From an uncultured Planctomycetales bacterium (lineage in GTDB: Bacteria > Omnitrophota > Gorgyraeia > Zapsychrales > CAYRXT01): a stretch of DNA of 64,000 bases. The stretch's first letter is position 1. Each line of letters opens with the position of its first letter. The stretch covers positions 5,407 to 69,406 of the forward strand of contig CAYRXT010000007.1 of NCBI GenBank assembly GCA_964428315.1, read 5' to 3'. A program made the position numbers and the translations under genes. The notes beneath the pieces are model-generated. The model saw nothing but the letters and a program-made list of their open reading frames with translations, had not been told where the DNA came from and made no database searches. Shown here piece by piece: positions 1 through 14,439 of this stretch.

Positions 1-500
1 TCGAGCCAGTTGACGCCGGCCGTCGTCAGTTCGGCCAGGTTGTCCCAGTTGATCGTCTCGTCCCAGTTGACGCCGGCGCCGCTCATGTAGGCGATGTCGT
101 ACCAGTTCACACCGGCCTCGCTCATGAACTCCAGGTCCTCCCAGTTAATGCCGCTGTCGCTCAGGACATCCAGGTCCGCCCAGTTGACGCCGGCGTCGGA
201 CATCACGTCGATGTCCAGCCAGTTGATCCCGGCATCGGAGAGGTCATTGATGCTGGTCCAGTTGATACCCTTGTCCGAGAGGATGTCGATATCCGCCCAG
301 TTGATGCCGGCGTCCGACATGTCGTTGACCGCGGTCCAGTTGATGCCCTTGTCGAACATGATGTCCAGGTCCGCCCAGTTCACGCCCGCGTCGCTCATGA
401 TGTCGATATCGAGCCAGTTGATGCCCGCCTCGGTGAGCTCGTAGATATCGTCCCAGTTGATCCCGGCCGCGGTCATGTCCGCGAGATCGCTCCAGGTGAC
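1..500 (-). repeat. Tandem 39-bp coding repeats encoding at least 12 copies of a 13-residue motif [S/T][D/E]AG[I/V]NW.D[I/L]D[I/V][M/L]. The array continues past the window edge. More degenerate NW units extend to about 720.
   Basis: The plus strand shows a periodic (c)cagttga(t/c)gccggc core every 39 nt. Translation reads ...TAAGINWDDIYELTEAGINWLDIDIMSDAGVNWADLDIMFDKGINWTAVNDMSDAGINWADIDILSDKGINWTSINDLSDAGINWLDIDVMSDAGVNWADLDVLSDSGINWEDLEFMSEAGVNWYDIAYMSGAGVNWDETINWDNLAELTTAGVNWL. Confidence 0.65.
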
Positions 501-3500
501 GTTGGCCTTGCTCAGCACCTCGATATCGTCCCAGTTGACGGGATCCATCTTGTCGGTGGTGGTCTTGATGCTGTCGGTGGTCGACTGGATGACCCCGACC
601 TGGTCCCAGTTGATGGTGTCGGTCACCGCCTTGATGGCGTCCACATTGGTGTCTATGGTATCGATCTTGGAATCGATCGTCGATATATCGCTCCAGTCGA
701 TGGTGTCGGTCTTGGCCTTGATGTCCGCCAGCTGGGAGGCGGTGACCGCGTAGAGCAGGCACTTGTCGTAGGTGGACCCGCCGTAGGAGATCTCCACGCA
801 GACCGAATACTCGTCGTCCAGGTCCGAGGGTGTCCAGCCGGTATAACTCTCGTAATCGAAATCGTCGCCGTCCGTCTTGGTCATCTCAAGCGAATCGCAG
901 TCACCGGGACACCCCGTATCCACCGCCCCGCTCCCCTGGTAGATGGTCAGGGTCCCGCTGGCCGCCTCCAGGTCCGCGACATAGCCGCCGTCATCGGAGA
1001 GCATGGCGCGGACCTCCCAGTTGTCGGCCGACTCGTCGTAGATGACGACGACATCGGCCACAGTCCCGCCCCCTCCGCTGCTGCCGCCGGTATTCGCGAT
1101 ATCCCGGACATTGTAGACCGCGTTGGAGGTGTAAGAGACCGCGCCGTTGCCGTCGTCGTAGGAAATGGTCACCACACCGTAGTAGATGTCGCTGGAATCC
1201 AAAGGCATCCAGCTGCCGTAACTGAAGATGTCATTCGCGTCCGGGTTGCCGATATCCGCCACCGTTGCGAGTTCCTCGGTCCCGTCGGGCTCATAAATCG
1301 TCAGTGAACAGGTGTCGTCGTTGTCCACGTCCACCACGTCCTGGTGGCCCTGCAGCCAGCATTTGACATAATAGGTCGACGCGGAATCGTCGTAAACGAC
1401 CTCGGACTTGACCTCCGTCGAAGGCAGGATGTCGAAGGCGCTGGAGGTCGCTGATGAGAGCCCCCCCGATGTGGCCGAAAGGTCGTAGTCGTTGCCGGCC
1501 CGGGTGATCCGCAGGTCGTTGAACGTGGCCACGCCGCTGGAAACGGTCTGCGTCAACGTCCCCAATAAAACACCGCTGGACGGGTTGGTGTTGATGGCGA
1601 CCGTGACGTTCGTCGAGTTGTCCTGCGCGATCACGGCGTTGTTGGAATCCCTCACCTGCACCTGCGGAAAATCCTGCAGGACGTCGAACTGGTAGGAATC
1701 TCCGGGGGACGTGCTGAAGTTCAGATTGTTGGGCCCCAGGAGCGTGGTCGTGCCCGATATGGCCACGGAACCCGAGGTGCTGACTGTCCCGGAGCTGAGG
1801 GTCACATCCGAGGGGGGATCATTGATGGATATCTCCACGGTCTCGCTGTCCGAGGCGCTGGAGGTCACATCCAGGACCGCGTAAACGCACAGGGCCTGCG
1901 TGGAAGAAATCTCGACCGAATCCGAAAAGGCCGAGGTCCCGTTGGCCGCGCTGAACCCGTCGGTATCGGTCGATCCGTACTGGGACTCGCCGCCGCCGTA
2001 GCTTTCCGAGGCGCAGTCATACGGCGAGGAGGTGTCCAGGTCGTAGTACAGCTTGATATTGTCCAGCCCGGTGGAGGCGTCCACGGTACCGCCTTCGGTG
2101 ATGGTGATGCCGGTAACGTTGCGCGCGGCGCTGTTTTCGGTGATCGTGAAGGCGCCGCCGATGTACTCGTTGACGTCGGGGATCTGCAGGCTGGCGGTCT
2201 GGGAGCCCGAAGTGCTGACCTCGGTCACTGCGAAAAACTCATCCGCGCCGATATCCGGCTGGGAGCTATCACGGCTGTCACCGTCGATGTCATCGGTAAT
2301 GGCAAGGTTGGAGTCTTCATCGAGGTCAGCCCCGTAGCTCCCCCATAAGGAATTAGAGTCATTTTTTAGGTGAAAATCTTCTGACCCTGCGGTTACGCTC
2401 TGAAAATAATCCGAATACGATGTCTGTTCCGTTACTCCATTAGCAAGGCTTGCTGAACTTGCCGATGTATCTGACGATACATTATTGGTAGAACCGGAAC
2501 CCCACGCCTGACCATCAAAATCAGAATTTGAATTATTGAGACAGACGTTGTTTTTTGCATAAAGCGTCGTCGTAGTCCCTCCAATATCCAAACCGTCATA
2601 GCTATCATAAACCGTGTTGTTATATATATAGGCCGTAGCCGTCCCCGTCACCCAAATACCCGCCCCCGAAGTAATTCCACGCAAGTAAACGATATTATTC
2701 CATATCTTCGCGACAACATCAGAATCTCCAAAAGAAATTCCCGTTGCAGAATTCGAAAAACTATTCGCATAAAGGATATTGTTAGAAACACGCAAATCAT
2801 TATTTGCAGAAATAGACTGATCACAAATTAAATAAGGATTGGAATATGTATCGTTGGACACTTTGATCTGTAACCCGTCAACACGCACATAATCATCGCG
2901 TATCCTAAAAATACGTTCATCATCTCCCGCTAAAGTCCTCTCTATACGATAGGCATCAGTATCATCCCACACACCCGCATGACGCTGACTGGTTCCCACC
3001 TCAGAAGTCTCTGTAGGCGTGTAAACATGAATATAATTAGCGGGACCTGTTGTATACCCATCGATATTGACCGTATTCGTATCCGCCCCGTCCCCATAAC
3101 AGGGCCAGTGCAGGACATATCCTTCCGTCAAGTCAGACGTATTCAAATAACTCGCGTCATCAGAATCATCCTCGGCACCGTCACCACCGCCGAGCGAATT
3201 AAACGCGCGTGAGATGGAATTGACGGTTACATCGGTCACGTCCGACGGCGTGTGTCCGGTAGCCGTGATGACGCTGTAGACGGTAGCGCTGGTGCGGCCC
3301 GAAATATAGGCGATCTTGTTGTCCGTATCATAGTCGATCTCATCGCCGACGCCCACATTATCGGCCTGGTCTTCGTCAAAGGTCGCCGTGCCGTCGGAAA
3401 TCGTCACCGTTAAGGTATCGGCGGTGGTCTTGAGATCTGAGGTGGACGTCCCCACCGAATAATACACGTTGACCACGTTCTCGTAAGACGAGCTGTATTC

Positions 3501-5633
3501 GTCGGCGCCGATGTCCGGGGCCGAGCTGTCGCGGGACTCGCCGTCGATGTCATCGGTCACGGCCAGGTTCGCATCCTCATCCAAGTCGGTCCCGTTGCCG
3601 CCCCACAGATTACTCGCCGTATCCCTCAGGTGCAGGTCCTCAAGCCCGTCGACGGTGATCCAGAAATAGTCCGTGTAACTCGACTGGCTGTCCACACTGC
3701 CGGTGCCGTCGGCGGTGGTGTCAGAGGCAACGTTGTAGGACTGGGTCATGGTGCCATCATAGCAATACTCATAGCTATTAGTCGAATCAACGTCGCCGAC
3801 ATAATTATTTGTGGCGGTTAACGTCCCCGCAGTAGCCCGCTGAATACCTCGTGCATTACCGCCTGTCGCTCCGCTTTGTTTAATATCGAACACCGTATTG
3901 TTGTAAAAATACGCGTTCAGAGTATTTCCAGCTTCATACACCATGAGCGCCGAAACATATGAATCACTATGTGCCGACACATTGGTCAGACTATAAATAA
4001 GCGTATTGCTCACTTTGAATGTTCCGCTTGTCCCGTATACCCCGCGGACACGGCTCTGATCCGTGTCATCAACCGTCGAATTGGTCAGGTCATGCACAAT
4101 ACAATGGGTCACCCGGACATCACTGGAAGCACTGGTACTGCCAACATAAATACCATTGAGCCCCTCGGCATTCGTAATACTGCTTCCGTCAATCTCTATC
4201 CCTTCAAACCGAACATAGTCCTCGTGATTCAGAATTATGTGATGGAAAGCACGGTCCGGACTGCTGGTTTCCTGCTGTATCCGAAATCCGGTACCGGCAA
4301 TACCGGTATGCCTCTGGCTCGCACCTACCTCAGAGGTGCCGTCAGGCGCGTATAATCGGATATATGTTTTGGGACCTGTCGTATACCCGTCGATGGTAAC
4401 CTGGTCATCAAGAGCCCCGTCGTTGTAACAGGGCCAGTGCAGGCGGTAATCGTTGGCCTGCAGGTCGGTGAGATTGAGATAACTCGCGTCGTCAGAGTCA
4501 TCTTCGGCGTCGGTCAGCGTGGTGAAAGTGCGGGTTATGGAGTTGACTGTGGCATCGGTCACATCCGAAGGCACGGCACCCGTGGCAGTAGTCACGGTAT
4601 AGACGGTGGAGCTGGTGCGGCCCGAGATATAGGCGTAGTTCGAGGTGTTGTAGGTGATCTTGTCACCCACCCCGACGTTATCGGCCTGGGCCTCGTCAAA
4701 GGTGGCCGTGCCGTCGGAGATCGTCACCGTTAAAGTGTCGGCGGTGGTCTTGAGATCCGATTCGTCCGTCCCCACCGAATAGTACACGTCCTTGACGACC
4801 AGGCCGTTGTCGTAGATATCCTTGATCTCATCGGCGCTGAGCGCCCGGTCAAAAATACCGACTTCGTCGATCAGCCCGTCGAAATACATCAGTTCATTCC
4901 AGCCGCCTTTACCGATCAAAAAACTGCGGCTGGAATTGTTGATGCCGCCGGAATAGGTCTGTGGATTATCCGATCCGTTGGAGTCAAGTTCCCCATCGAC
5001 ATAGATGCGGATGTCGGTCCCGTTATAGACCCCGGCAACATGATACCATGTCCCGGTCGAAAGGGTTGTCCCTCCGCTGGCGGTCGTGGTCGCGCTGCCG
5101 TCAGATGATAACGTCATACGCACATCCAAACCGCTTTCCACAAAAAACATGTAGGCCTTTTCATTGCCGGATGTCAAATATTTGTTAACAATAAACTGGT
5201 CGCTTCCGGTGTCGCTCTCCAACCGTATCCAGGCGCATATAGTCATACTGCCGGTAATGTCCAGTCCGGTCTGGCTCCCGTCTGTTATCTCCAGGTATTC
5301 GGTGTCTCCGGCCTCAAAATCAGCGCTGTAATTTCCCTGCTGGTAGGTGGAGGAGCGATCGATGGTGCCGGAGGTCTCTGAGAGGTCATTATCATTAGAG
5401 GTCTCATCATAGCGGGTGCCGGTCTCCTCGAAGAGCCAGATGCCCTGGGCGTTGTCGTCGTCGGCGTAGTTGGTGGCGAAGGCGTGTCCCGAGAGGCCGA
5501 GCACGGCCGCGGCGGCCAGCGCGGACACAAGAAGGCCCCGTGTCCATGCGTTGCCACGGCACGAAATCCTTTCGGACCTTGTCTTTCCTGATTGAAGACA
5601 AATAGTTTTTATTAATTTAAATAAAGAATCCAA
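1..5633 (-). CDS. Giant secreted multidomain surface (adhesin/S-layer-like) protein, partial because the C-terminus runs off the window start. Domains N-to-C: signal peptide; LamG/ConA-like lectin domain; two tandem ~420-aa parallel beta-helix modules; Ig-like region; 13-aa NW tandem repeats.
   Basis: Continuous minus-strand reading frame (codons on plus positions 3k..3k+2) with no stop between 5637 and position 1, hand-translated at both ends and through the middle. The other two minus frames and all plus frames show only short ORFs in the track. N-terminus ...RGLLVSALAAAAVLGLSGHAFA is a signal peptide with AXA cleavage. The first in-frame start is TTG at 5631-5633, after a TAA at 5637-5639; the start codon is uncertain. 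LamG motif ...TGTWYHVAGVYNGTDIRIYVDGEL...FDGLIDEVGIFDRALSADEI. Beta-helix PbH1-type turns NNTVFD, NNIVY, NNTVYD, NNVCLNNS. Both modules end ...DIDG(E/D)SRDSS.PDIGADE. Confidence 0.6.
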   Translation of the reverse strand, partial: MDSLFKLIKTICLQSGKTRSERISCRGNAWTRGLLVSALAAAAVLGLSGHAFATNYADDDNAQGIWLFEETGTRYDETSNDNDLSETSGTIDRSSTYQQGNYSADFEAGDTEYLEITDGSQTGLDITGSMTICAWIRLESDTGSDQFIVNKYLTSGNEKAYMFFVESGLDVRMTLSSDGSATTTASGGTTLSTGTWYHVAGVYNGTDIRIYVDGELDSNGSDNPQTYSGGINNSSRSFLIGKGGWNELMYFDGLIDEVGIFDRALSADEIKDIYDNGLVVKDVYYSVGTDESDLKTTADTLTVTISDGTATFDEAQADNVGVGDKITYNTSNYAYISGRTSSTVYTVTTATGAVPSDVTDATVNSITRTFTTLTDAEDDSDDASYLNLTDLQANDYRLHWPCYNDGALDDQVTIDGYTTGPKTYIRLYAPDGTSEVGASQRHTGIAGTGFRIQQETSSPDRAFHHIILNHEDYVRFEGIEIDGSSITNAEGLNGIYVGSTSASSDVRVTHCIVHDLTNSTVDDTDQSRVRGVYGTSGTFKVSNTLIYSLTNVSAHSDSYVSALMVYEAGNTLNAYFYNNTVFDIKQSGATGGNARGIQRATAGTLTATNNYVGDVDSTNSYEYCYDGTMTQSYNVASDTTADGTGSVDSQSSYTDYFWITVDGLEDLHLRDTASNLWGGNGTDLDEDANLAVTDDIDGESRDSSAPDIGADEYSSSYENVVNVYYSVGTSTSDLKTTADTLTVTISDGTATFDEDQADNVGVGDEIDYDTDNKIAYISGRTSATVYSVITATGHTPSDVTDVTVNSISRAFNSLGGGDGAEDDSDDASYLNTSDLTEGYVLHWPCYGDGADTNTVNIDGYTTGPANYIHVYTPTETSEVGTSQRHAGVWDDTDAYRIERTLAGDDERIFRIRDDYVRVDGLQIKVSNDTYSNPYLICDQSISANNDLRVSNNILYANSFSNSATGISFGDSDVVAKIWNNIVYLRGITSGAGIWVTGTATAYIYNNTVYDSYDGLDIGGTTTTLYAKNNVCLNNSNSDFDGQAWGSGSTNNVSSDTSASSASLANGVTEQTSYSDYFQSVTAGSEDFHLKNDSNSLWGSYGADLDEDSNLAITDDIDGDSRDSSQPDIGADEFFAVTEVSTSGSQTASLQIPDVNEYIGGAFTITENSAARNVTGITITEGGTVDASTGLDNIKLYYDLDTSSPYDCASESYGGGESQYGSTDTDGFSAANGTSAFSDSVEISSTQALCVYAVLDVTSSASDSETVEISINDPPSDVTLSSGTVSTSGSVAISGTTTLLGPNNLNFSTSPGDSYQFDVLQDFPQVQVRDSNNAVIAQDNSTNVTVAINTNPSSGVLLGTLTQTVSSGVATFNDLRITRAGNDYDLSATSGGLSSATSSAFDILPSTEVKSEVVYDDSASTYYVKCWLQGHQDVVDVDNDDTCSLTIYEPDGTEELATVADIGNPDANDIFSYGSWMPLDSSDIYYGVVTISYDDGNGAVSYTSNAVYNVRDIANTGGSSGGGGTVADVVVIYDESADNWEVRAMLSDDGGYVADLEAASGTLTIYQGSGAVDTGCPGDCDSLEMTKTDGDDFDYESYTGWTPSDLDDEYSVCVEISYGGSTYDKCLLYAVTASQLADIKAKTDTIDWSDISTIDSKIDTIDTNVDAIKAVTDTINWDQVGVIQSTTDSIKTTTDKMDPVNWDDIEVLSKANVTWSDLADMTAAGINWDDIYELTEAGINWLDIDIMSDAGVNWADLDIMFDKGINWTAVNDMSDAGINWADIDILSDKGINWTSINDLSDAGINWLDIDVMSDAGVNWADLDVLSDSGINWEDLEFMSEAGVNWYDIAYMSGAGVNWDETINWDNLAELTTAGVNWL
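2232..4790 (-). repeat. Intragenic tandem duplication: two ~1.29-kb copies (about 2232..3496 and 3497..4790), each encoding one beta-helix module of the giant protein.
   Basis: Near-identical DNA blocks, for example 3330-3440 vs 4640-4750 (…tcggcctgg.c.tcgtcaaaggt.gccgtgccgtcgga.atcgtcaccgttaa.gt.tcggcggtggtcttgagatc…). Both protein copies begin VYYSVGT..SDLKTTADTLTVTISDGTATFDE and end PDIGADE. Confidence 0.55.
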
Positions 5634-5989: not shown

Positions 5990-6024
5990 AAAACCGGTTC
6001 CACCTACGAGGTGGAACCGGTTTT
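5990..6024. repeat. REP-like hairpin, left flank of the RAYT.
   Basis: aaaaccggttccacc-tacga-ggtggaaccggtttt: a 15-bp perfect inverted repeat with a 5-nt loop. Confidence 0.8.
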
Positions 6025-6700
6025 ACTCCAAAATCGCCTTTTTGATCCTTGACAGCTCCCGCTGGTAACCGACCTGGTCTTCGACGAACGTCTTGTACGC
6101 ACCCGGATTTATATCAACGATATGGTCAAACTGACATAAAGAATCCGGGCGGTCCCGTTCAATATACTCCCGGTACGAGGAATAACGCCATTCCTCCGGA
6201 TAGTCGACCAGATGCGCGGTCACGGGATTCAGGTGGATATAGCGCGTCACATGCAAAAGGACCTCGTCTGTATCCACCAGGACTTTGCGCGTGCGCCCCT
6301 GCCACAGCGGCCCCTGCCGTTTATGCCGGAGGTTGAAATACCGGGAATAACTGTTGAGCACATCGCTCGTGTACCGTGGCAGGCTCTCCTCTTTGGTTTC
6401 CTCGACCAGAAGATGGAAATGCGTCGGCATAAGGCAATAGGCGATAAGACGGATACGCCTGCTCCGGTGGTTCCGCGGCGGGGAGGCCCCGCCCTTTGCG
6501 GGTCCGGTCCTGCGCCCCGGTGAGACGGGATGCATCCGGCGATAAAGAGAAAATTTCTGAGGCGGCTTTTTCAGCTGATAATAGTCCAGGGCATCGGTCA
6601 TGCGCATGTATTCGGCGTTGTTATTGAAGATCTTGTACCGGGCGATGCTCCGGTTAAAGACATGATAGACGGCGTTCATGGGAAGTTTTTTACGTTCCAC
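6023..6700 (-). CDS. REP-associated tyrosine transposase (RAYT) / IS200-like Y1 HUH transposase.
   Basis: Motifs YHVFNRS...IF, HUH motif LIAYCLMPTHFHLLVEE, GPLWQGRTRKVLVDTDEVLLHVTRYIHLNPV (catalytic Tyr region) and EEWRYSSYREY. The track start is GTG at 6700; ATG at 6679 (MNAVYHVFNRS) is the more likely start. The stop overlaps the left hairpin. Confidence 0.75.
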   Translation of the reverse strand: MERKKLPMNAVYHVFNRSIARYKIFNNNAEYMRMTDALDYYQLKKPPQKFSLYRRMHPVSPGRRTGPAKGGASPPRNHRSRRIRLIAYCLMPTHFHLLVEETKEESLPRYTSDVLNSYSRYFNLRHKRQGPLWQGRTRKVLVDTDEVLLHVTRYIHLNPVTAHLVDYPEEWRYSSYREYIERDRPDSLCQFDHIVDINPGAYKTFVEDQVGYQRELSRIKKAILE

Positions 6701-6750: not shown

Positions 6751-7965
6751 TCATTCCGTCAAAAACGGCGCGTTAATGATCACCGCCTTTTCCTCATCCA
6801 GCTCTTTCTCGGTCGGCGAATCGATCATGGACCGCATCTCCAGTTTCGCCTCCAGGATCTTCTCCTTGACCAGGTCGACATCGCCGGCGTTGGGCCTGAG
6901 ATAGAGATATTCCTGGTAATGCTTCAACGCCGTTTCCGTGTCCCCCAAAAATTCCCCGCTGACGAACGCCAGATTGTAATGCGCGGCCGCGTCATTGGGC
7001 ATGATCTCCAGGACCTTTTTATACTCGACCACGGACCGGCCGTAATCGCCGCGTTCATAGAAGAGATTCGCCAGGTTATAATGCAGGCGCGCCGAGTCCG
7101 CCCGCAGTTCCTGGTTTTCCGCGTTAAGCTGGCGGATCTTCTCCGCCGCGGTCTTGACGTCATCGCTCATGTCCTCAAAGGTGGTCTGGACTTCCTCCTC
7201 GAGCTTGTCCAGCAGTTCCAGCGACTCCCGGCGGAGTTCCTGGTTTTCCTCTTTAAGCGCCGCGATTCTCCGGTCGGTTTCGCGCTGGACGGTCTCCTGT
7301 TTTTCGATGGCGGCGGCACGCAGACGCTCGTTTTCTTCACTCAAAAAACTGATCCTCTCGGCGGCCATCTTCAGCCTGTCATCGGTTGCCTCCATGTCTC
7401 CGGGGTCCCAGAAGAGTCCCATCTGTTTAATCTTCTCTTTTTCCTTCTGCAGGGCACTCAGCTCGGCGATCTTATCATCCAGTTCCTTTTCCAGGCCCGC
7501 CATCCGGGCGTTGAGAGCCTCCAGCTCTTTGCCTGTCGACTCCCGGCTGTCGTCGAGCGCGTCGATCTCGGCCTGGAGGTCATCCCTCTGCCGGATGAGG
7601 TTGTTGATACGGTTTCGCCGGATGGTGCTCTGGCCGCGCAGTTCCTTCAGCTCGCTCTCAAGGGTCTTGCGCTCGTCGATCAGCTGTTTGTTCTCCTCCA
7701 GGGCGTTCCTGAGGCTCTGGTTGATGATCACCATCTGCTTTTCGTTGAGATCGAGTGCGGGGACATCCTCTCCAGCCGCCGGAAGCGCGTCATCATCCCC
7801 CACCGCCGTCTCGTCATCGACAGAAGGGGCGATCTGCTCGATCTGGATCTCCGTCTCAACCACCGCCCTCTCCTGGGCCAGCACGCACGGAACAATCAGC
7901 AGGCCAAGCGAAATACCAACACCCGTGCGGACCGCGGACCGCAAACCTTCACGCATTAAATCCAT
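6751..7965 (-). CDS. Secreted or membrane-anchored coiled-coil protein with C-terminal TPR repeats. It may be an MshN-like partner of the secretin.
   Basis: Long heptad-rich E/K/L/R segment (…ELKELRGQ…LQAEIDALDD…LEKELDDKIAELSALQKEKEK…) followed by TPR-like GDYGRSVVEYKKVLEIMPNDAAAHYNLAFV…ALKHYQEYLYLRPNAG. The preferred start is ATG 7965 (MDLMREGLRSAVRTGVGISLGLLIVPCVLAQ, signal-like), with a GAGGAAGGG RBS 5 nt upstream. The track ORF extends to 8025. Confidence 0.5.
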   Translation of the reverse strand: MDLMREGLRSAVRTGVGISLGLLIVPCVLAQERAVVETEIQIEQIAPSVDDETAVGDDDALPAAGEDVPALDLNEKQMVIINQSLRNALEENKQLIDERKTLESELKELRGQSTIRRNRINNLIRQRDDLQAEIDALDDSRESTGKELEALNARMAGLEKELDDKIAELSALQKEKEKIKQMGLFWDPGDMEATDDRLKMAAERISFLSEENERLRAAAIEKQETVQRETDRRIAALKEENQELRRESLELLDKLEEEVQTTFEDMSDDVKTAAEKIRQLNAENQELRADSARLHYNLANLFYERGDYGRSVVEYKKVLEIMPNDAAAHYNLAFVSGEFLGDTETALKHYQEYLYLRPNAGDVDLVKEKILEAKLEMRSMIDSPTEKELDEEKAVIINAPFLTE

Positions 7966-8052
7966 TAGCCCTTCCTCTTGTTTGTCCTTTTTGCTTTCTC
8001 GTCCCGCTGACGGGGAGCGTTTCACCCGGCAGGGAGAAGTGGTTTTCGAGCC

Positions 8053-9705
8053 TCACATCTCCTTGAGTTCCTGCGGCTCCTCATAATCTTTGAACGGCTT
8101 GATCGTCCCCCGCCATTGTTTATACCGGTCGTCCGCCCTTACGACATGTGGCGTGATAAAGATAACGATCTCCGTCTTCGTTATGGTGTCGCTCTGGTTG
8201 CGGAACAAGGCGCCCAGCAACGGGATATCCATCAAAAGGGGGACGCCTTTTTCCACATGGCTCTTGTCGTCCTTTTTTAACCCGGCAAGGATGATGGTAT
8301 TCCCGTCCTTGACCATGACGGTCGTCTCCACCTCGGTCTTGTTGACCTGGGGGATCCCGCCGCCCTGTGATTCGATCTTGGCCGTGACCGTGGAGATCTC
8401 CGGCTTCAGGCTCATGGTGACAAATCCGTCGTCGTTGATGGTCGGCGTCACCAGCAGTTTCAACCCCACATCGACAAAACGCACGTCTTCGCTGGTGATC
8501 GCGTTGTCGCCCGTGCCCGATGTAGTGGAAATGATGTAGGGCACGGAGTCCCCTATATGGATCTTGGCCTCTTCATTGTTGGTCACCAGGAGCTTGGGAT
8601 TGGAGAGGATCTTCGTGTCGCTGACCTGCTGGAGCGCGCGCAGATTGATCTCAAACTGATCCGGCGTGATATCGCCGTAGCCGATCTTGCCGAATTCTGA
8701 ATAAAGGGCGTCGCTGCTGCTGAGGTTGTTTTCATCAAGAAAGATACTTCGGAAGCTGAGGTCTCTCAGACCGGAGTGTTCGCTGCGCTTGAAATCCGTC
8801 TCCCAGTCAATGCCGAAATCAAACTGGGGCTTAAATGTAATCTGGATGACCCTGGCTTCGATGAGGACTTCCTTCGTCTGGGCATCCAGCTCTTGAATCA
8901 GCTCCTCGACCTCCTTGCGCCGTCCGGGAAGCGCCCGGACGATCAGCTTGTTGGACCGCTCGTCTGGCGTGATGCTGCCGACCGCATTGGCGTCGATTCG
9001 CGCACGCAGCTTCTCGGCGACCACATCGGCCTTGGCGTACTGCAGGCTGAAGACCATCGACTCGACGGGCATGTCGATCCGGCGGATGGCCGCCATCATC
9101 TTCTCCAGGGTCTGCGGCGTGTCGATCATCGCCACGGTCCCGGTGTCTTCGTCAATGATAATCTTGCCCAAATTGCTCTTGATGGAATCCAGCGCGGCAA
9201 GGATATAGCTCGGCTTGGCGTAATGCAGGCGGACGATTTTTACCTCCTGCTTGTCGGAAAAGCGCCGGCCGTAAAGGGCGGAATATTCCGATTCCGTCAT
9301 GACATGGACGATGCCGTTCTTGACCTCGTAAGCCAGGTTGTTGGAAATCAGGATGATGTCCAGGGCGTCCCTGATGGAAACGCTCTTGAGGTACAGCGTC
9401 ACCCGGCCGGTCACGGTTGGATTGGTGACGACGTTAAACTCTCCCTTCAGCGCCAGAAACTTTATGACGTCCACCATGTTCATGTCGCGCACGTCGAGGG
9501 TGATCTTGCGGCCCAGCCCCTCAACGTCGTCCGGGCCGGTCTCCTCACTGAATTCCGAGCCTGCGTCGGTCCCGCTGACACCCGGTACCGGCATGGCATG
9601 CGCCTGCGGCGTGACGCCGGCAGGCTGAGCCTTCAGAGTCCCGGCAAAAACCGCGATGCCGAAAACCGTCGCCGCGATGATGACGCATCCTTTAACACTG
9701 CGCAT
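8053..9705 (-). CDS. Secretin of the GspD/PilQ/MshL family (type II secretion / type IV pilus outer-membrane channel).
   Basis: Signal peptide MRSVKGCVIIAATVFGIAVFAGTLKAQ. N-terminal secretin-N-like domains. C-terminal secretin domain …VETTVMVKDGNTIILAGLKKDDKSHVEKGVPLLMDIPLLGALFRNQSDTITKTEIVIFITPHVV. Confidence 0.8.
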   Translation of the reverse strand: MRSVKGCVIIAATVFGIAVFAGTLKAQPAGVTPQAHAMPVPGVSGTDAGSEFSEETGPDDVEGLGRKITLDVRDMNMVDVIKFLALKGEFNVVTNPTVTGRVTLYLKSVSIRDALDIILISNNLAYEVKNGIVHVMTESEYSALYGRRFSDKQEVKIVRLHYAKPSYILAALDSIKSNLGKIIIDEDTGTVAMIDTPQTLEKMMAAIRRIDMPVESMVFSLQYAKADVVAEKLRARIDANAVGSITPDERSNKLIVRALPGRRKEVEELIQELDAQTKEVLIEARVIQITFKPQFDFGIDWETDFKRSEHSGLRDLSFRSIFLDENNLSSSDALYSEFGKIGYGDITPDQFEINLRALQQVSDTKILSNPKLLVTNNEEAKIHIGDSVPYIISTTSGTGDNAITSEDVRFVDVGLKLLVTPTINDDGFVTMSLKPEISTVTAKIESQGGGIPQVNKTEVETTVMVKDGNTIILAGLKKDDKSHVEKGVPLLMDIPLLGALFRNQSDTITKTEIVIFITPHVVRADDRYKQWRGTIKPFKDYEEPQELKEM

Positions 9706-9733
9706 AAATTTCCATCCCCTAACTTCCCGGCTT

Positions 9734-10444
9734 TTAAAGATTCATCATCATCTCTTCGGATTTATAGCCCAGGATGACTTCGTCGCCGCGGATCGCCTTG
9801 ACCTTCAGGGCGTCGATGCTCTCTCCCACGGCCACGAAATGCGTAATGCCGTTTACCGTGTCCTCGATCATCGCGATGGGGGCCCCTTCGTCCTCCACGC
9901 TGGAAATCCCCACCAGCCTGAGATTCTTCGTGAGTGCCGTAATCTGCACGGCTTCGGGCGCTTCGTCAGGTGATTTTTCCACCACCTTCTTCTCGTAGGG
10001 CTGAAAAATATTCCTGTGTTCCAGCAGGCTCAGGTATAGGGAGACATCCGGCGAAGACGGTACCGCGATCTGCATCGACCCTTTGCTCCCCTCATCCCGA
10101 GAAACAGCGATCTCCTGCCTGGTGTAACGCAGTCCGTTTACAATATTCCAAACGAAAAGCAGGCATACAACCATAAGGGCGGCCAGGAGGAGATTGTTCA
10201 CTTCCCTCATCCCGAAGCTCGGCCGGCCAGAACCGCTGCGAAGGCCGGAAAAGAGTCCCTCCAGGGCCGGCGGCAGGTTCAGGCCCGGGAGGCCCAGTCC
10301 CTTGACTGAGGTAGCGACCGCCGCCGCCTCCATTTCCCCCGAGGCTTCTTCCTTTTCGGCCTCTACGGCCGGGGCATCACCTCCCTGCTCTTCAATCAGA
10401 CGCAGGAGTTTCTGCTCGCCTGTTTCTTTTTTTTTTGCTGACAT
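9734..10444 (-). CDS. Single-pass membrane protein, possibly a GspC/PilP-like secretin-interacting component.
   Basis: Charged N-terminus, one TM helix (LLLAALMVVCLLFVWNIV) and a periplasmic C-terminal beta-rich segment (…LRLVGISSVEDEGAPIAMIEDTVNGITHFVAVGESIDALKVKAIRGDEVILGY) resembling HR/PilP-type domains. A poly(A)10 tract covers codons 3-6. Confidence 0.35.
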   Translation of the reverse strand: MSAKKKETGEQKLLRLIEEQGGDAPAVEAEKEEASGEMEAAAVATSVKGLGLPGLNLPPALEGLFSGLRSGSGRPSFGMREVNNLLLAALMVVCLLFVWNIVNGLRYTRQEIAVSRDEGSKGSMQIAVPSSPDVSLYLSLLEHRNIFQPYEKKVVEKSPDEAPEAVQITALTKNLRLVGISSVEDEGAPIAMIEDTVNGITHFVAVGESIDALKVKAIRGDEVILGYKSEEMMMNL

Positions 10445-10509: not shown

Positions 10510-11406
10510 TCACGCCAAATCCTCCGTCTTCTGATAAGCCGGCTTGCTGATCATCGTCTTGCGGTCCCATCCCGCCTGTCGCTCCTTATCCAGGACATCC
10601 CTCACGACAGACTTGTCGGCGACAGGCTTGTTCTGCATAACCATCTCCTTCAGGACGCGGTGGCAGAGCATCGTGATACTGCGGGGGTATCCACGCGAGT
10701 AATTGTATATCTCGCTGACGGCATCCGGAGAGAACAATTCCATCGCAGAGGCATACCCGGCCTTCCGGATCCGGTATTCTATCATTTCCTTTGTCTCTTT
10801 GGGGCCCAGCGGATTCAGCGTGTACTTAAAACTTATCCGGTCAATGAAATTGGACATGTTCGCTATCTTCGAATATAACTCCATCTGTCCAAGAAGCACA
10901 AGCTGTATAAGTTTGTATTCATTGGTTTCGAAATTCAGCAAAACCCGCAGGACCTCCAGCGTTGTGAGGTCCAGCTTCTGCGCCTCATCAATAATGAGGA
11001 TGACGGTCTTCTTCTCCTCGACACTCTTCTGGATCAGAAATCTTTCAACGGCGTCACGCAGATCCAGGATGCGTTCAATGGCCGGCATGTCCGACGGCTC
11101 CAGTTCGATATTAAAATTTCTTACCAGTGATATCAAAAACTGCTCTTCATTTTCAAAGGCCGGATTGAGTATCATGTGAAATATCAGATCGCCGCGCCTT
11201 CGCAGTTCTTGAACAAGCTTGCGCGACAGGCTCGTCTTCCCGGTCCCGATATCACCGAATATGACTGTGAGACCACGGCGCAAACGCAGTTCAATCAGGA
11301 TGTTGGTCAAGGCCATATCGTGTTCGCGCGTAAGATAGAAAAATTCCGGATCGGGGCTCGTTGAGAATGGTTCTTTTTTAAAACCAAGCAGACTGTGATA
11401 GGACAT
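10510..11406 (-). CDS. ExeA/GspA/MshM-like AAA ATPase (secretin assembly/piloting ATPase).
   Basis: N-terminus MSYHSLLGFKKEPF, Walker A GDIGTGKTSL and Walker B ILIIDEAQ, with ExeA-family architecture. An AT-rich promoter region lies upstream (11407-11528). Confidence 0.75.
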   Translation of the reverse strand: MSYHSLLGFKKEPFSTSPDPEFFYLTREHDMALTNILIELRLRRGLTVIFGDIGTGKTSLSRKLVQELRRRGDLIFHMILNPAFENEEQFLISLVRNFNIELEPSDMPAIERILDLRDAVERFLIQKSVEEKKTVILIIDEAQKLDLTTLEVLRVLLNFETNEYKLIQLVLLGQMELYSKIANMSNFIDRISFKYTLNPLGPKETKEMIEYRIRKAGYASAMELFSPDAVSEIYNYSRGYPRSITMLCHRVLKEMVMQNKPVADKSVVRDVLDKERQAGWDRKTMISKPAYQKTEDLA

Positions 11407-11528: not shown

Positions 11529-12569
11529 TTAACAAAGTCGAGTTGATTGAGAAGACTTTTTTGACTTTTTTTTCGACGAGTGGCACAACATGAGATTCCA
11601 AATACCGACGATAAATCCATAGGTCCGCGTGAAAGACCTCAGGAACATGACGGCGCACAAATAAAGTCTTTCAGTCCAGAACGCGCACATCCGGAAAGAA
11701 TAGGCGGTTTCCGTAATGCCTAATAACACTGTTCCGGTTAAAACAGTTATTCCGCCACCGGTTACACCCAGGGCCCACATTGCAGTTCCGGCCGCGATCA
11801 CACAGACTAAAACAGGTTCCATCATGTCTTTCACAAATGTATAGTCGTCCCCCCGACTCATGCCGGGATGATCCCTGTACATCTTGGCCCTCCAGAATCC
11901 GTGGCGCGCCTGTTCCCGCAAATACAAAACCAGGTTTTCCGGAAACACATGGTTCACTTCGACTTTTTTCGCGAACCTTATTGCGTATCCGGCCTTAAAG
12001 ATCCTGTAACTTAAGTCATTATCCTCACCGCTGGCAGATCTATATGTCTCATCAAAACCGCCGACCTCCATCATCACATTTCTTCTGACACAAAAGTTAT
12101 AACTTCCGAACGACTTAGGATAATCGGGCATTAACGTGCGATGGCGAAAGATGATCTCACGGTAAATGCATCTCGCCAGAAGGCTATCATTATTCTTAAT
12201 TCCGTAACTGCCTGATACTACAGCTACTTTTGTTTCTGCCAAATATCCGAGCATGGTTTTGATCCATGTCTCTTTCGGCTCGCAATCCGCATCTGTAAAA
12301 AAGACAACCTCTCCGGTGCTGATCTTCCAGCCCCTGTTTCGAGCGGTCGCCGGTCCGGCGTTGTCTTGATAAAAATATTGGACTTGGGGGAAGCCTTTCA
12401 CAACCTCTCTCGTGGCATCCGTAGATCCGTCATCAACGACAATGATTTCCTTTTCTCCAGGATAATTCTGACACAACAGGGCCTTTATAGTTTCCCTAAG
12501 AGAAACCGCGCTGTTGTAGGCGGGGATAACAATGCTGACACGAGAATTCTTAGAGTAGCCGTCCGTCAT
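11529..12569 (-). CDS. Family-2 glycosyltransferase with C-terminal TM helices (GtrB/ArnC-like polyprenyl-phosphate sugar transferase type).
   Basis: VSIVIPAYNSAVSLRETIKAL…IIVVDDGSTDAT…FFTDADCEP (DXD). Hydrophobic C-terminal helices. Confidence 0.75.
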   Translation of the reverse strand: MTDGYSKNSRVSIVIPAYNSAVSLRETIKALLCQNYPGEKEIIVVDDGSTDATREVVKGFPQVQYFYQDNAGPATARNRGWKISTGEVVFFTDADCEPKETWIKTMLGYLAETKVAVVSGSYGIKNNDSLLARCIYREIIFRHRTLMPDYPKSFGSYNFCVRRNVMMEVGGFDETYRSASGEDNDLSYRIFKAGYAIRFAKKVEVNHVFPENLVLYLREQARHGFWRAKMYRDHPGMSRGDDYTFVKDMMEPVLVCVIAAGTAMWALGVTGGGITVLTGTVLLGITETAYSFRMCAFWTERLYLCAVMFLRSFTRTYGFIVGIWNLMLCHSSKKKSKKSSQSTRLC

Positions 12570-13225: not shown

Positions 13226-13275
13226 AAAATATTCTTACCGGTCAGGCGCCGGTTCCAAGGCAACAGCCGGGGTTT

Positions 13276-13635
13276 TTATTTTGCATCCCCCACCCTCTCC
13301 CTGAGCTGCTCAATTTCAAGTTCCAGCATGCCGATGCGCTGCGCCATGACGGCGTTGCGGCCGTCTTGCTGGCAGATGAACGTTGTCAACAAAAGGCTCA
13401 GAAACACAAAGAAAGCCAGCAGCGTAAAAAAGATAAAATTGCTGGGCAATTCGAAACCCGCCCACCGGGCCAGGCCAAAAAGCCAGTCATCAAAAATGAT
13501 AAACACGATGCCGGCAACAGAAAGGATGATCCAGCCGACGGCGTATTTAAAGGTGAGCTTTCCCCGGCGGATCAATTCAATGACGATCATCAAAAACATC
13601 AGCGGCATCAAAAAGGCGAAGAGCTTAAGGTCCAT
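13276..13635 (-). CDS. DUF2304-type small 4-TM membrane protein (GtrA-like partner of GT2 enzymes).
   Basis: 119 aa with four predicted TM helices and a C-terminal amphipathic tail. This family typically neighbours GT2 genes. Confidence 0.5.
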   Translation of the reverse strand: MDLKLFAFLMPLMFLMIVIELIRRGKLTFKYAVGWIILSVAGIVFIIFDDWLFGLARWAGFELPSNFIFFTLLAFFVFLSLLLTTFICQQDGRNAVMAQRIGMLELEIEQLRERVGDAK

Positions 13636-13636
13636 A

Positions 13637-14353: not shown

Positions 14354-14439
14354 AGAACGCTTGTCTTTCCGAGGGAGCGAGAAAAACGTTATACGCAAGT
14401 GGAGCCGGGAAAACCCGGCAGGGTAACCGCAGCAGCGAG

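What the first reader, a model, noticed from the sequence alone, without database searches (positions are those of the whole stretch)
1..5633. Giant secreted LamG + 2x beta-helix + Ig-like + NW-repeat surface protein running off the window
There are at least 1875 codons of uninterrupted minus-strand ORF (partial). It carries a signal peptide, a LamG lectin domain, a tandem pair of ~420-aa parallel beta-helix modules (a recent 1.3-kb intragenic duplication), Ig-like segments and a C-terminal array of 13-aa repeats. This architecture is typical of the very large adhesin/S-layer-like proteins of uncultivated lineages. It sits directly beside an orphan secretin module and a lipid-linked glycosylation module, which suggests a dedicated surface-display system.
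Basis: partly seen in the sequence, partly recalled or inferred. Interest (0 to 1): 0.7.

Follow-up and report, generated by a model that had tools for sequence, protein, structure and literature searches.

The report
Giant NW-repeat fibre protein of Omnitrophota
The window starts inside a gene for a very large secreted protein of an Omnitrophota bacterium: sugar-binding-type head domains on a stalk of 13-residue repeats. It belongs to an undescribed family that always sits between the pilus outer-membrane channel genes and an F-type ATPase operon, in the kind of locus proposed to serve attachment to host cells.

Summary
The minus-strand frame is open for 1,878 codons (5636 to 3) and runs off the window. 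It encodes a Sec-type leader, a LamG domain (Pfam E=2e-32), two ~440-aa modules, three Ig-like beta-sandwiches and a 39-nt/13-aa "NW" repeat array.

Two claims fail. The duplication is not recent: the beta-helix cores are only 30% identical. The secretin is not orphan.

The organism is a Candidatus Omnitrophota bacterium. The conserved part of the protein is its C-terminal half, not its head. The Ig-like domains plus NW array define a rare family (259 hits among 1.84 billion representative proteins) absent from Pfam, NCBIfam and PDB.

In 16 of 16 loci with a visible 5' flank, the family gene lies downstream of ExeA-like ATPase, GspC-like, PilQ-type secretin and TPR genes. In 6 of 6 loci with a visible 3' flank, a membrane-anchored 430-aa protein and an F-type ATPase operon follow.

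Heads vary between lineages. Arrays reach at least 596 units and routinely break assemblies.

Best reading: a secretin-linked adhesive fibre. Its function is inferred, not shown.

The parts
3..5633 (-). Partial ORF, 1,877 aa from TTG 5633 (frame open from 5636). It runs off the window at its 3' end. The product is very acidic: D+E 299 against K+R 77.
5475..5633 (-). N-terminal leader, aa 1-53. A long basic n-region is followed by the hydrophobic core LLVSALAAAAVLGL and A-F-A before TNY. The start codon is uncertain: TTG 5633, or the ATG at 5547-5545, which is one base out of frame.
   Evidence: read directly from the sequence, no predictor run
4821..5306 (-). LamG / concanavalin-A-like lectin domain, aa 110-271.
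   Evidence: PF13385, E=2.4e-32; PDB 4qvs S-layer-domain protein LamG, E=1e-10
3468..4793 (-). Module A, aa 281-722. An N-terminal ~95-aa beta-barrel is followed by a right-handed parallel beta-helix and a cap ending DIDGESRDSSAPDIGADE.
2154..3467 (-). Module B, aa 723-1160. Same architecture as module A, but its beta-helix core is shorter and only 29.6% identical.
1740..2153 (-). Unassigned segment, aa 1161-1298. No family match and no confident model.
   Evidence: (pLDDT below 36)
1428..1739 (-). Big/invasin-like Ig domain, aa 1299-1402. This is the first domain of the conserved family core.
   Evidence: (pLDDT 80-94); hits to this stretch carry PF02369/PF18565/PF09134
1098..1427 (-). Beta-sandwich domain D1, aa 1403-1512 (VVYDDSASTYYVKCW...).
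744..1067 (-). Beta-sandwich domain D2, aa 1523-1630.
549..743 (-). Transition region with KTDTI(D/N)W-type units of about 15 aa, aa 1631-1695.
3..548 (-). NW array: 14 units of 13 aa (consensus D-A-G-[IV]-N-W-x-D-[IL]-x-[VI]-[LM]-S). It includes the conserved landmark AGVNWYDIAYMSGAGVNWDETINWDNLAELTTAGVNW and is cut by the window edge.
6023..6700 (-). REP-associated tyrosine transposase-like gene (Y1_Tnp) between the TPR gene and the giant gene. No gene sits in this position in L001 or L012, the two loci with the same TPR-then-giant layout.
   Evidence: 63 bits, cut-off 80
6751..8025 (-). Membrane-anchored coiled-coil plus TPR protein, with weak PilW/Tgl/PrsT-type matches.
8053..9705 (-). Secretin (STN + Secretin_N + Secretin). 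PilQ model 277 bits (cut-off 284); GspD model 254 bits (cut-off 351).
9734..10444 (-). GspC-like protein.
10510..11406 (-). ExeA/GspA-like AAA_22 ATPase. The closest model is the PEP-CTERM-associated ATPase TIGR03015, at 186 bits against a cut-off of 324.
11529..14494 (-). GT2, methyltransferase, DUF2304 and a polyprenyl-phosphate-type GT2 (PpgS/AglJ-like). This is a conserved part of the same syntenic block; its link to the giant protein is untested.

Best explanation
The ORF is the N-terminal 1,877 residues of a Sec-exported, very acidic, fibre-like surface protein of a Candidatus Omnitrophota bacterium.

It is a long-headed member of a phylum-restricted, previously undescribed family. The conserved core of the family is a Big-like Ig domain, one or two beta-sandwich 'D' domains, an array of KTDTINW-type and 13-aa 'NW' repeats (tens to at least 596 units), and a ~150-260-aa hydrophilic, Ser/Thr-rich, probably helical C-terminal domain ending in VVxK[TA]W[FY]E. 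That C-terminal domain lies outside this window.

The family gene is a fixed component of the Omnitrophota locus that combines type-4a-pilus/T2SS-like genes with an F-type ATPase operon. It lies downstream of the ExeA-like ATPase, GspC-like, PilQ-type secretin and TPR genes. It lies upstream of a C-terminally membrane-anchored ~430-aa protein and the ATPase operon.

Proposed mechanism (inferred, not shown): the protein crosses the inner membrane by Sec. Its conserved C-terminal part keeps it attached to the envelope machinery, either the membrane-anchored partner or the secretin complex. The NW array forms a long stalk that reaches or passes the outer membrane at the secretin. The lineage-variable N-terminal head contacts glycans on a host or prey cell surface. 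In this protein the head is a LamG lectin-type domain plus two pectin-lyase-fold beta-helix modules.

Shown here: the ORF, the domain identities and folds, the family, and the conserved gene order. Inferred: localisation, dependence on the secretin, orientation, and glycan binding.
For: The ORF is open and far beyond chance.

Organism: the secretin is 100% identical to one unnamed database protein, and every named protein among the 120 listed homologs (58-71% identical) is from Omnitrophota.

Family core: the window aligns at 55% identity to P0001 over 576 aa, with an identical 30-residue landmark inside the array. The same core is present in P0241-P0244, P0249 and P0260.

Rarity: 259 hits at E<=1e-3 among 1.84 billion representatives. 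There are no Pfam, NCBIfam or PDB matches to the array or the C-terminal domain.

Synteny upstream: a secretin gene lies upstream in the window, L001-L009 and L012-L017 (L016's flank begins inside the secretin gene). Loci were found from both directions, by NW query and by secretin query.

Synteny downstream: C-terminal domain, then the 430-aa TM protein, then F-ATPase beta in L001, L008, L019, L021 and L022. On L018/L020 the locus ends inside the TM-protein gene, so the ATPase is not seen there.

Variable head on a conserved stalk: short forms begin the Big-like domain 60-100 aa after the leader. P0341 has a LamG-like N-terminus read from its sequence. P0001, P0340 and L012 have a 520-aa N-domain plus one beta-helix module.

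Sec-type leaders are present throughout the family. Arrays reach at least 596 units, and a 16,112-aa gene call occupies the same position in one genome.

Published context: type-4a pilus and 'symbiotic' F-type ATPase clusters are co-located in all Omnitrophota classes and proposed to serve attachment or motility on host cells (PMC10066038).
Against: There is no experimental datum on localisation or function for any family member.

The conserved block also contains glycine-cleavage, lipoate-ligase and ATPase genes. Gene order in these small genomes is conservative in general, so adjacency need not mean functional coupling.

In this window a transposase-like gene separates the ORF from the TPR gene. 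In several other loci two FGE-sulfatase-domain genes do so.

The fold of the NW array is unresolved. AlphaFold gives helix-turn units at pLDDT 40-54, and the hydrophobic periodicity fits neither an alpha-helix nor a beta-strand clearly.

The true C-terminus of this particular gene is not in the window and the source contig could not be retrieved. I did not test whether the neighbouring F-type ATPase belongs to the published 'symbiotic' clade.
Confidence: 0.55

Rival explanations
1. Conserved neighbourhood without coupling. The protein is a generic Sec-exported envelope, S-layer-like or matrix protein. It merely sits in a slowly rearranging part of small Omnitrophota genomes and has no dependence on the secretin or the ATPase.
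For: The syntenic block extends to unrelated housekeeping genes: GcvP, LplA and the ATPase operon. Other genes intervene between the TPR gene and the NW gene: RAYT here, FGE-sulfatase genes elsewhere. A promoter-like site lies upstream of the ORF, though such sites are no more frequent than chance.
Against: The order secretin module, NW gene, TM protein, ATPase holds while secretin identity falls to 44% and while the head of the protein is exchanged. The family is restricted to the lineage that has this locus type. No S-layer or cell-wall anchoring domain was found.
Confidence: 0.2
2. Secreted polysaccharide-degrading enzyme. The beta-helix modules would be catalytic lyases or hydrolases, as in PL6/PL9 lyases or phage depolymerases, exported through the T2SS-like secretin to digest host or prey envelope polymers. 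The rest of the protein would act as a tether.
For: The best structural neighbours are nearly all carbohydrate-active enzymes: PL6 alginate lyase, BT_1002, Pel9A and tailspike depolymerases. Pectate lyases are classic T2SS substrates (general knowledge). Invariant polar residues are present in all 23 aligned modules: D131, Q166-R167-H168 and R201. Cell-wall degradation has been proposed for other Omnitrophota giant proteins (10.1101/2023.11.21.568195).
Confidence: 0.12
3. The NW array is an anchor, not a stalk. Like choline-binding or other short aromatic cell-wall-binding repeats, the invariant Trp residues would bind an envelope glycopolymer made by the adjacent polyprenyl-phosphate GT2/DUF2304 module. 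This would hold the protein non-covalently on the producer's own surface.
For: Asn and Trp are invariant in 72 of 72 regular units of P0001. The glycosylation module is part of the conserved block. GT2b resembles PpgS/AglJ-type polyprenyl-phosphate glycosyltransferases.
Against: Arrays of 600 or more units far exceed what anchoring needs. There is no sequence or structural match to any known wall-binding repeat. The fold is unresolved.
Confidence: 0.08

Closest known systems
Type IV pilus-associated adhesins PilY1/PilC
   Same: Large, Sec-exported and encoded within pilus gene clusters. The logic is the same: a conserved C-terminal part that docks on the machine and a variable N-terminal adhesive part. 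Both depend on a PilQ-type secretin.
   Different: No PilY1/PilC beta-propeller domain was detected in this protein or in the complete relative P0001. The stalk here is a 13-aa repeat array that can reach thousands of residues, and the C-terminal domain is helical. The resemblance is functional analogy only.
Giant repeat adhesins of Gram-negative bacteria (LapA, SiiE, MpIBP; RTX/T1SS type)
   Same: Very acidic, made of Ig-like domains plus a long repetitive extender, with lectin-type ligand-binding domains at one end.
   Different: This protein has an N-terminal Sec-type leader instead of a C-terminal T1SS signal. No RTX/HemolysinCabind repeats were found. The extender unit is 13 aa, not a ~100-aa Ig domain. 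The associated genes are a secretin module, not a T1SS.
Pectin-lyase-fold beta-helix proteins (PL6 alginate lyase 7dmk, BT_1002 5mqp, Pel9A 1ru4, phage tailspike depolymerases, adhesin PfbA 3zpp)
   Different: Sequence identity is 10-16%. There is no Pfam Beta_helix/PbH1 match in any of 23 module copies and no PDB sequence-profile match. Each module carries its own N-terminal beta-barrel and a DIDGxxR...DIGADE cap.
Multi-module giant proteins of CPR bacteria and DPANN archaea (e.g. Moranbacteria LamG/CenC-annotated proteins, P0005-P0013)
   Same: They share the 440-aa module at 30-50% identity, often with LamG domains, in up to 6 tandem copies.
   Different: In the local alignments only the Omnitrophota-locus protein P0001 covered the D-domain/NW region of the query. 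A dedicated search found D-domain/NW relatives labelled Omnitrophota, plus one labelled Elusimicrobia; all other hits matched only the Ig-like domain.
Omnitrophota 'Archaeovorin' and dockerin-type giant proteins (West-Roberts et al. 2023 preprint)
   Same: Same phylum, very large, proposed to mediate adhesion to or digestion of a prey surface, and encoded near T2SS/T4P-like genes.
   Different: Those proteins are at least 30,000 aa, with many transmembrane regions and, in most, SecA DEAD-like domains, or with dockerin/TSP3 repeats. They sit behind a Tad-like (rcpC) system of more than 10 genes. None of those domains matched the Pfam scan of this protein.
Mycoplasma mobile gliding machinery (Gli349/Gli521 surface 'legs' with a type-2/3 F1-like ATPase)
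   Same: A very large surface protein gene sits next to an F-type ATPase operon of unusual gene order. The analogy for the ATPase was drawn by Seymour et al. (PMC10066038).
   Different: No sequence comparison with Gli proteins was made. The envelope here is diderm with a secretin. The clade of the ATPase next to the NW gene was not tested.

Membership tests
Laminin_G_3 (Pfam PF13385), concanavalin-A-like lectin/glucanase | HMM score above the gathering threshold | tested here: met
   112.6 bits against 27.6, aa 110-271, full-length model match 3-151/151
Pfam Beta_helix (PF13229) / PbH1 repeats | Sequence match to the family HMM | tested here: not met
   No hit at E<=1 in the whole protein. 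None of 23 aligned module copies matched at E<=0.1. The PF13229 hits stored for relatives such as P0003 lie outside the aligned module copies (aa 305-452 against modules at 613-1918).
Pectin-lyase-like right-handed parallel beta-helix fold | Three-dimensional superposition on solved members | tested here: met
Polysaccharide lyase / glycoside hydrolase enzymes of the beta-helix fold (PL6, PL9, GH28 and others) | Conserved catalytic residues and, for lyases, the Ca2+ site in the groove | not tested
   Only the fold was compared. Invariant D131, Q166-R167-H168 and R201 were not mapped onto the model.
Bacterial Ig-like domains (Big_1/invasin D3 type) | HMM match on the protein itself | tested here: not met
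   No Big or invasin family hit at E<=1.
Bacterial Ig-like domains (Big_1/invasin D3 type) | Ig-like beta-sandwich fold, and homologs that carry the family domains | tested here: met
   aa 1299-1402 has pLDDT 80-94. Foldseek matches tandem Ig/FN3/MG domains at E=3e-8. Hits to this stretch carry PF02369, PF18565 and PF09134.
Omnitrophota NW-repeat fibre family (defined here) | Tandem 13-aa units with invariant Asn-Trp, preceded by KTDTINW-type units | tested here: met
   14 units in register at window 3-548. The consensus matches that of P0001.
Omnitrophota NW-repeat fibre family (defined here) | Conserved irregular landmark in the array (…NWxDIAYMSGAGVNWDETINWDNLAELTTAGVNW) | tested here: met
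   Identical over 30 residues to P0001. Recognisable in P0241, P0242, P0244 and P0249.
Omnitrophota NW-repeat fibre family (defined here) | Big-like Ig domain plus D domain(s) directly before the repeats | tested here: met
Omnitrophota NW-repeat fibre family (defined here) | Gene located downstream of the ExeA-like, GspC-like, secretin and TPR genes | tested here: met
   Window genes at 6751-11406. The same order is seen in 15 other loci.
Omnitrophota NW-repeat fibre family (defined here) | C-terminal domain ending VVxK[TA]W[FY]E, followed by a ~430-aa TM-anchored protein and an F-type ATPase operon | not testable with these tools
   The 3' end of the gene lies beyond the window and the source contig is not on record. 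The feature is seen in P0001, P0241, P0341, P0343 and P0391 and in loci L001, L008, L018, L019, L021 and L022.
PilY1/PilC pilus tip adhesins | C-terminal PilY1/PilC beta-propeller domain | tested here: not met
   No such Pfam hit in the window protein or in complete P0001.
RTX / T1SS giant adhesins | RTX nonapeptide repeats and a C-terminal T1SS signal, with no Sec leader | tested here: not met
   No HemolysinCabind hit. An N-terminal Sec-type leader is present here and in relatives.
S-layer proteins | SLH or another S-layer anchoring domain | tested here: not met
   None in Pfam or NCBIfam scans of the window protein or of complete relatives.
Known C-terminal sorting signals (PEP-CTERM, LPXTG, T9SS CTD, autotransporter barrel) | Match to the corresponding models at the C-terminus | tested here: not met
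   Tested on complete relatives only: no hit in P0001, P0241 or P0341. Their C-termini are hydrophilic and look helical when read directly.
Secretins (the neighbouring gene at 8053-9705) | Secretin and Secretin_N domains; subtype by NCBIfam | tested here: met
   PF00263 at 175 bits and PF03958 at 80 bits. The subtype is inconclusive: PilQ 277 bits against 284, GspD 254 against 351, MshL 189 against 250.
Omnitrophota Archaeovorin / dockerin-type giant proteins | Many TM regions with a SecA DEAD-like domain, or dockerin/TSP3 repeats | tested here: not met
   No such domains in the Pfam scan of the 1,877 visible residues. TM helices were not predicted. The definition is taken from 10.1101/2023.11.21.568195.

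The most novel reading that the evidence does not exclude
The NW-repeat protein would be a single-polypeptide filament made of hundreds to about a thousand 13-residue units. That would make it roughly 0.3-0.5 micrometre long, longer than the ultra-small cell that makes it. The length is my own estimate from the unit count and an assumed rise of about 5 A per unit.

The filament would be deployed through the PilQ-type secretin and mechanically coupled, through its conserved C-terminal domain and the membrane-anchored 430-aa partner, to the adjacent F-type ATPase. This would be a new kind of attachment or motility organelle, with exchangeable lectin/beta-helix heads that set host specificity. 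It would be analogous in principle to the Mycoplasma mobile leg/F1-ATPase machine but evolutionarily unrelated.
Probability: 0.13. Interest if true: 0.85.

Novelty: new variant of a known kind. Interest (0 to 1): 0.6.

Why it matters
Omnitrophota are widespread ultra-small bacteria thought to live attached to, or preying on, other cells. The co-located type-4a-pilus and F-type ATPase clusters have been put forward as their attachment or motility apparatus, but no adhesin has been assigned to that locus.

This finding points to a conserved, unannotated family sitting inside loci of that architecture. It has the properties expected of the missing surface component: a Sec leader, a conserved machine-proximal end, an extensible stalk, and lineage-variable glycan-binding heads.

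There is also a practical consequence. The NW array is a systematic assembly breakpoint: contigs of 350 kb to 1.27 Mb end inside it. The gene is therefore truncated or missing in most metagenome-assembled genomes, and its size is underestimated (at least 7,992 codons in one contig; a 16,112-aa call in another).

The 440-aa beta-helix module is a widespread domain of giant proteins in CPR, DPANN and other lineages that currently has no Pfam model.

Tried and rejected
(1) Retrieving the source contig to find the true C-terminus. Exact-product look-ups for the secretin, the AAA_22 protein and the 100%-identical database protein P0121 found nothing. Neither the genome scan nor the metagenome scan returned the source contig.

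(3) The fold of the NW array. AlphaFold2 with an 8-row alignment gave helix-turn units at pLDDT 40-54, which is not usable. A hydrophobicity harmonic analysis peaked at a period of 2.6 residues, fitting neither an alpha-helix nor a beta-strand. Gly is frequent at unit positions 8 and 10, which argues against a simple helix. An oligomeric beta-fibre, such as a triple beta-spiral, remains possible.

(4) N-glycosylation sequon idea. N-W-[ST] would be a sequon, but position 7 is S/T in only 61% of P0001 units and in 2 of 11 units in this window. Rejected as a defining feature.

(5) Recent duplication. Rejected, because the module cores are 29.6% identical while the flanks are 55-74% identical. The pattern suggests two old module subtypes with partly homogenised ends.

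(6) Equating this protein with the published Omnitrophota giant proteins. Rejected, because the domain content and the associated secretion locus differ.

(7) PDB sequence searches with the NW region and with the C-terminal domain of P0001 gave no meaningful hits.

(8) A literature search for the motif strings AGINW, AGVNW and KTDTINW returned only noise.

(9) The promoter/terminator scan upstream of the ORF found one promoter-like site, no more than expected by chance.

Full report
**1. Observation**

Of the three minus-strand frames over window 1-5702, only one is open. It has 1,878 sense codons from plus position 5636 down to 3 and continues past the window edge. From the base composition of the region about 74 stop codons would be expected, so P(no stop) is about 1e-33.

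The in-frame start candidates are TTG 5633, GTG 5528 and GTG 5504. The only nearby ATG (5547-5545) is one base out of frame. Read in frame, it would give a textbook leader, M-TRGLLVSALAAAAVLGLSGHAFA|TNY. Either TTG 5633 is used, giving a 33-residue basic n-region before the same hydrophobic core, or the assembly carries a 1-nt indel there.

The product (1,877 aa from TTG 5633) is extremely acidic, with D+E 299 against K+R 77.

**2. Domains**

*LamG.* Pfam finds one domain above threshold: Laminin_G_3 at aa 110-271 (112.6 bits, E=2.4e-32). NCBIfam finds nothing.

*The two modules.* They span aa ~281-722 and ~723-1160 and align at 48% identity over 447 columns (E=6e-106). Matching DNA direct repeats lie 1,320-1,332 nt apart. 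They match no Pfam model, either in this protein or in any of 23 aligned copies from this and other proteins. A profile of the alignment finds no PDB sequence.

His proposed HMM test fails, and the module is an unannotated domain family.

*The duplication is not recent.* The first 100 module residues are 74% identical between A and B, but the helix cores are only 29.6% identical. That is lower than the 46% between A's core and the single module of the relative P0001. These look like two old module subtypes with partly homogenised ends.

*The C-terminal part.* A second model (aa 1150-1877, 8-row alignment) is poor overall (pLDDT 56.8) but usable for three consecutive beta-sandwiches. These are aa 1299-1402 (pLDDT 80-94), 1403-1512 (70-81) and 1523-1630 (65-83). 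Foldseek matches them to tandem Ig/FN3/macroglobulin domains (E=3e-8). aa 1161-1298 remains unassigned.

*The repeat array.* The array has period 39 nt at window 3-548 and holds 14 units in register. The consensus is D-A-G-[IV]-N-W-x-D-[IL]-x-[VI]-[LM]-S. A short run of KTDTI(D/N)W-type units precedes it.

**3. Organism and relatives**

The neighbouring secretin is 100% identical to one unnamed database protein. The rest of the 120 listed homologs are 58-71% identical, and every one that carries a name is from Candidatus Omnitrophota.

A search with the whole protein returns 195 large proteins. Local alignment shows that nearly all share only the 440-aa module and/or LamG. The module occurs in up to 6 tandem copies in proteins of Moranbacteria and other CPR bacteria, DPANN archaea, Planctomycetota and others.

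Only one hit, P0001, covers the C-terminal 570 residues. It is 2,809 aa, complete, and comes from JGI metagenome 3300037722. Identity to the window is 55% over that stretch, with a 30-residue identical landmark inside the array.

P0001 shows what lies beyond the window: about 73 NW units (aa ~1590-2545), followed by a 264-aa Ser/Thr-rich, hydrophilic domain ending ...VVMKTWFEAE. Read directly, that domain looks helical.

**4. A family with a conserved core and exchangeable heads**

Searching with the C-terminal region alone recovers NW-repeat relatives labelled Omnitrophota, plus one labelled Elusimicrobia. All other hits match only the Big/invasin-like Ig domain.

An exhaustive HMMER scan of 1.84 billion representative proteins finds only 259 hits at E<=1e-3, and 22 at E<=1e-30. 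Many are fragments.

Most members are 'short-headed': leader, about 60-100 residues, Big-like domain, one D domain, NW array. P0341 begins with a LamG-like sequence, read from its N-terminus. P0001, P0340 and the L012 gene carry a ~520-aa N-domain plus one beta-helix module. The window protein has LamG plus two modules.

Complete C-termini share the motif VVxK[TA]W[FY]E at or near the last residue. It is seen in P0001, P0241, P0341 and P0391 and on contig Ga0209417_1000311; P0343 ends in a degenerate form, VVTAWME. P0391 is a more distant member with 15-aa KTDTINWADVTG units.

Pfam, NCBIfam and PDB sequence searches give no significant match to the array, the C-terminal domain or any known sorting signal. 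The motif strings do not occur in the searchable literature.

**5. Genomic context**

In the window the ORF is preceded on the same strand by these genes:
- a REP-associated-tyrosine-transposase-like gene (6023-6700)
- a membrane-anchored coiled-coil/TPR protein (6751-8025)
- a secretin (8053-9705; PilQ model 277 bits against a cut-off of 284, GspD 254 against 351)
- a GspC-like protein (9734-10444)
- an ExeA/GspA-like AAA_22 ATPase (10510-11406)
- GT2, methyltransferase, DUF2304 and a PpgS/AglJ-like GT2 (11529-14494)

The rest of the window is housekeeping: an S41 peptidase, glycine cleavage genes, the dcw cluster, riboflavin genes and LigA. It holds no pilus or T2SS ATPase, platform or pilin genes.

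Related loci were collected from both directions. The NW region served as query in one set (L001-L008, L014-L023) and the secretin in the other (L009-L013).

Every locus whose 5' flank is visible has the secretin upstream of the NW gene. That is the window plus L001-L009 and L012-L017, 16 of 16. All but L006 also show a TPR gene match. The AAA_22 gene is seen in 14 of the 16: it is absent from L008, and L016's flank begins inside the secretin gene. Secretin identity to the window ranges from 66% down to 44%. In at least three short-headed loci (L008, L009, L013) two FGE-sulfatase-domain genes lie between the TPR gene and the NW gene.

Every locus whose 3' flank is visible has the same continuation: NW C-terminal domain, then a ~430-aa protein with a C-terminal transmembrane helix and no family match. 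That is 6 of 6: L001, L008, L018/L020, L019, L021 and L022. An F-type ATPase beta gene follows in five of them; L018 ends inside the 430-aa gene. In L001 and L008 the ATPase operon is followed by PilZ/PilMN or T2SS-E/F/G genes.

This matches the co-location of type-4a pilus clusters with 'symbiotic' type-2/3 F-type ATPase clusters that Seymour et al. found in all Omnitrophota classes. They proposed that it serves attachment or motility on host cells (PMC10066038). That paper does not mention this gene. I did not test whether the ATPase next to the NW gene belongs to their 'symbiotic' clade.

The giant proteins of West-Roberts et al. are a different class: at least 30,000 aa, many TM regions, SecA-like domains in most, and Tad-like loci.

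**6. Size**

The NW array ends contigs. In L002-L007, L009-L011 and L014-L017 the gene runs into the contig end. This includes contigs of 350-541 kb (L009-L011) and 1.27 Mb (L015). L013's gene stops a few hundred bases before the end of a 1.23-Mb contig, with a further open frame running on to the end. Contig ERZ761609 NODE-8 (300 kb) has NW repeats about 2.5 kb from its start.

On JGI contig Ga0209417_1000311 (125 kb) the merged loci L020 and L018 show a frame open for at least 7,992 codons. It holds 596 NW motifs, 575 of them at 13-residue spacing. It is still open at the 5' end and ends ...DDIVVKTWFESD.

On a 3.36-Mb contig (ERZ21862645) the gene in this position is called at 16,112 aa. Its first 2,606 residues are a P0001-type head followed by NW units.

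The window ORF is therefore probably the first part of a protein of at least ~2,900 aa, by analogy with P0001, and possibly much more.

**7. How it most likely works (inference)**

The combination points to a fibre-type surface adhesin that works with the secretin-containing pilus/T2SS-like machine. The elements are a Sec-type leader, a conserved C-terminal half, a variable N-terminal lectin/beta-helix head, and a fixed position between a PilQ-type secretin module and a membrane-anchored partner.

On this reading the conserved C-terminal domain holds the protein at the envelope, the NW array is the extender, and the head binds (or perhaps cuts) glycans on a partner cell. PilY1-type pilus adhesins use the same logic, but no PilY1 domain is present.

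The fold of the NW unit is unresolved. Any statement about fibre length is an estimate from the unit count.

Rivals:
- conserved synteny without coupling, since the block also holds glycine-cleavage genes and the ATPase
- a secreted polysaccharide-degrading enzyme, since the structural neighbours are mostly enzymes, although the identity is 10-16% and the modules are dispensable in most family members
- the NW array as a wall-polymer-binding anchor whose ligand is made by the adjacent glycosyltransferase module

**8. Novelty and verdict**

The individual head domains are ordinary (LamG, beta-helix, Ig-like), and the general idea of a giant adhesin in an uncultivated lineage is known.

What is new is the NW-repeat family itself, which has no model in Pfam or NCBIfam, no PDB relative and no literature hit. 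Also new are its invariant place in a secretin/pilus/F-type ATPase locus of the type described for Omnitrophota, the conserved C-terminal motif, the head-swapping, and the realisation that the array systematically truncates this gene in assemblies.

I rate it a new variant of a known kind, with moderate-to-high interest. The functional model is still entirely inferential.

Noticed in passing
window 6023-6700 (-): A REP-associated tyrosine transposase-like gene (Pfam Y1_Tnp; NCBIfam 63 bits, cut-off 80) sits between the TPR gene and the giant gene. In L001 and L012, the two other loci with the TPR-then-giant layout, no gene is called in that gap. It looks like a lineage-specific insertion that may uncouple the giant gene from the upstream operon.
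   Followed up: partly
window 5544-5547 (-): The only ATG near the leader is one base out of frame. In frame it would give the textbook leader MTRGLLVSALAAAAVLGLSGHAFA. This may be a 1-nt assembly indel; otherwise a TTG start 29 codons upstream is used.
   Followed up: partly
window 14440-14808 (-); also L009 5037-5411, L012 4718-5083, L013 5098-5466: A lone 122-aa ORF matches only the C-terminal part of ATP synthase delta/OSCP (E=5e-7). It is conserved between the S41 peptidase and the GT2 gene, far from the ATPase operon that lies beyond the NW gene.
   Followed up: partly
L008 6796-9991, L009 12971-16490, L013 12850-16235: Two FGE-sulfatase-domain genes lie between the TPR gene and the NW gene in short-headed loci. 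In L009 only the second of the pair is annotated. They are absent where the NW protein carries a long LamG/beta-helix head (window, L001, L012). The pattern is reciprocal and suggests the head and these proteins may substitute for each other.
   Followed up: partly
L020+L018 (JGI Ga0209417_1000311, contig 6410-30816); L012 13859-21677: The NW genes here are enormous. One frame is open for at least 7,992 codons with 596 NW motifs, and a 16,112-aa gene call occupies the same position in a 3.36-Mb contig. Contigs of 350 kb to 1.27 Mb end inside or just after the array, so it is a systematic assembly breakpoint in Omnitrophota genomes.
   Followed up: yes
L001 18502-19785; L008 12610-13917: A conserved ~430-aa protein follows directly after the NW gene. 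It has a C-terminal transmembrane helix and no Pfam or NCBIfam match. It appears to contain an internal duplication: two regions of it match the same stretch of L018. It is a candidate membrane partner of the fibre.
   Followed up: partly
L001 19859-25409; L008 13933-19336: The F-type ATPase operon has an unusual gene order (beta, epsilon, small ORF, c, small ORF, OSCP-like, gamma, alpha). No subunit-a gene is recognisable among the called genes. It is wedged between the NW gene and the pilus/T2SS E/F/G or PilZ/PilMN genes. Its clade was not determined.
   Followed up: no
window 22147-24510 (-) and tRNA-Arg 24451-24525 (-): A 787-codon ORF with no Pfam match at E<=1. Its 5' end overlaps the tRNA-Arg gene, so the real start must lie further downstream.
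   Followed up: no
window 29590-30375 (-): A Peptidase_MA_2 gene is embedded in the dcw cluster between murC and murG, which is an unusual insertion in that cluster.
   Followed up: no
L002, L006 (record titles); P0260: These records are labelled Planctomycetales, Planctomycetia or Elusimicrobia but carry the Omnitrophota-type secretin/NW locus, with secretin 49-66% identical to the window. They are probably taxonomic mislabels of MAGs.
   Followed up: no
window 16250-16705 (-): A small EF-hand protein is conserved in the same syntenic block (also in L001, L009, L012). Given the extreme acidity of the giant protein (net charge about -220), a calcium link is conceivable. It was not examined.
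   Followed up: no
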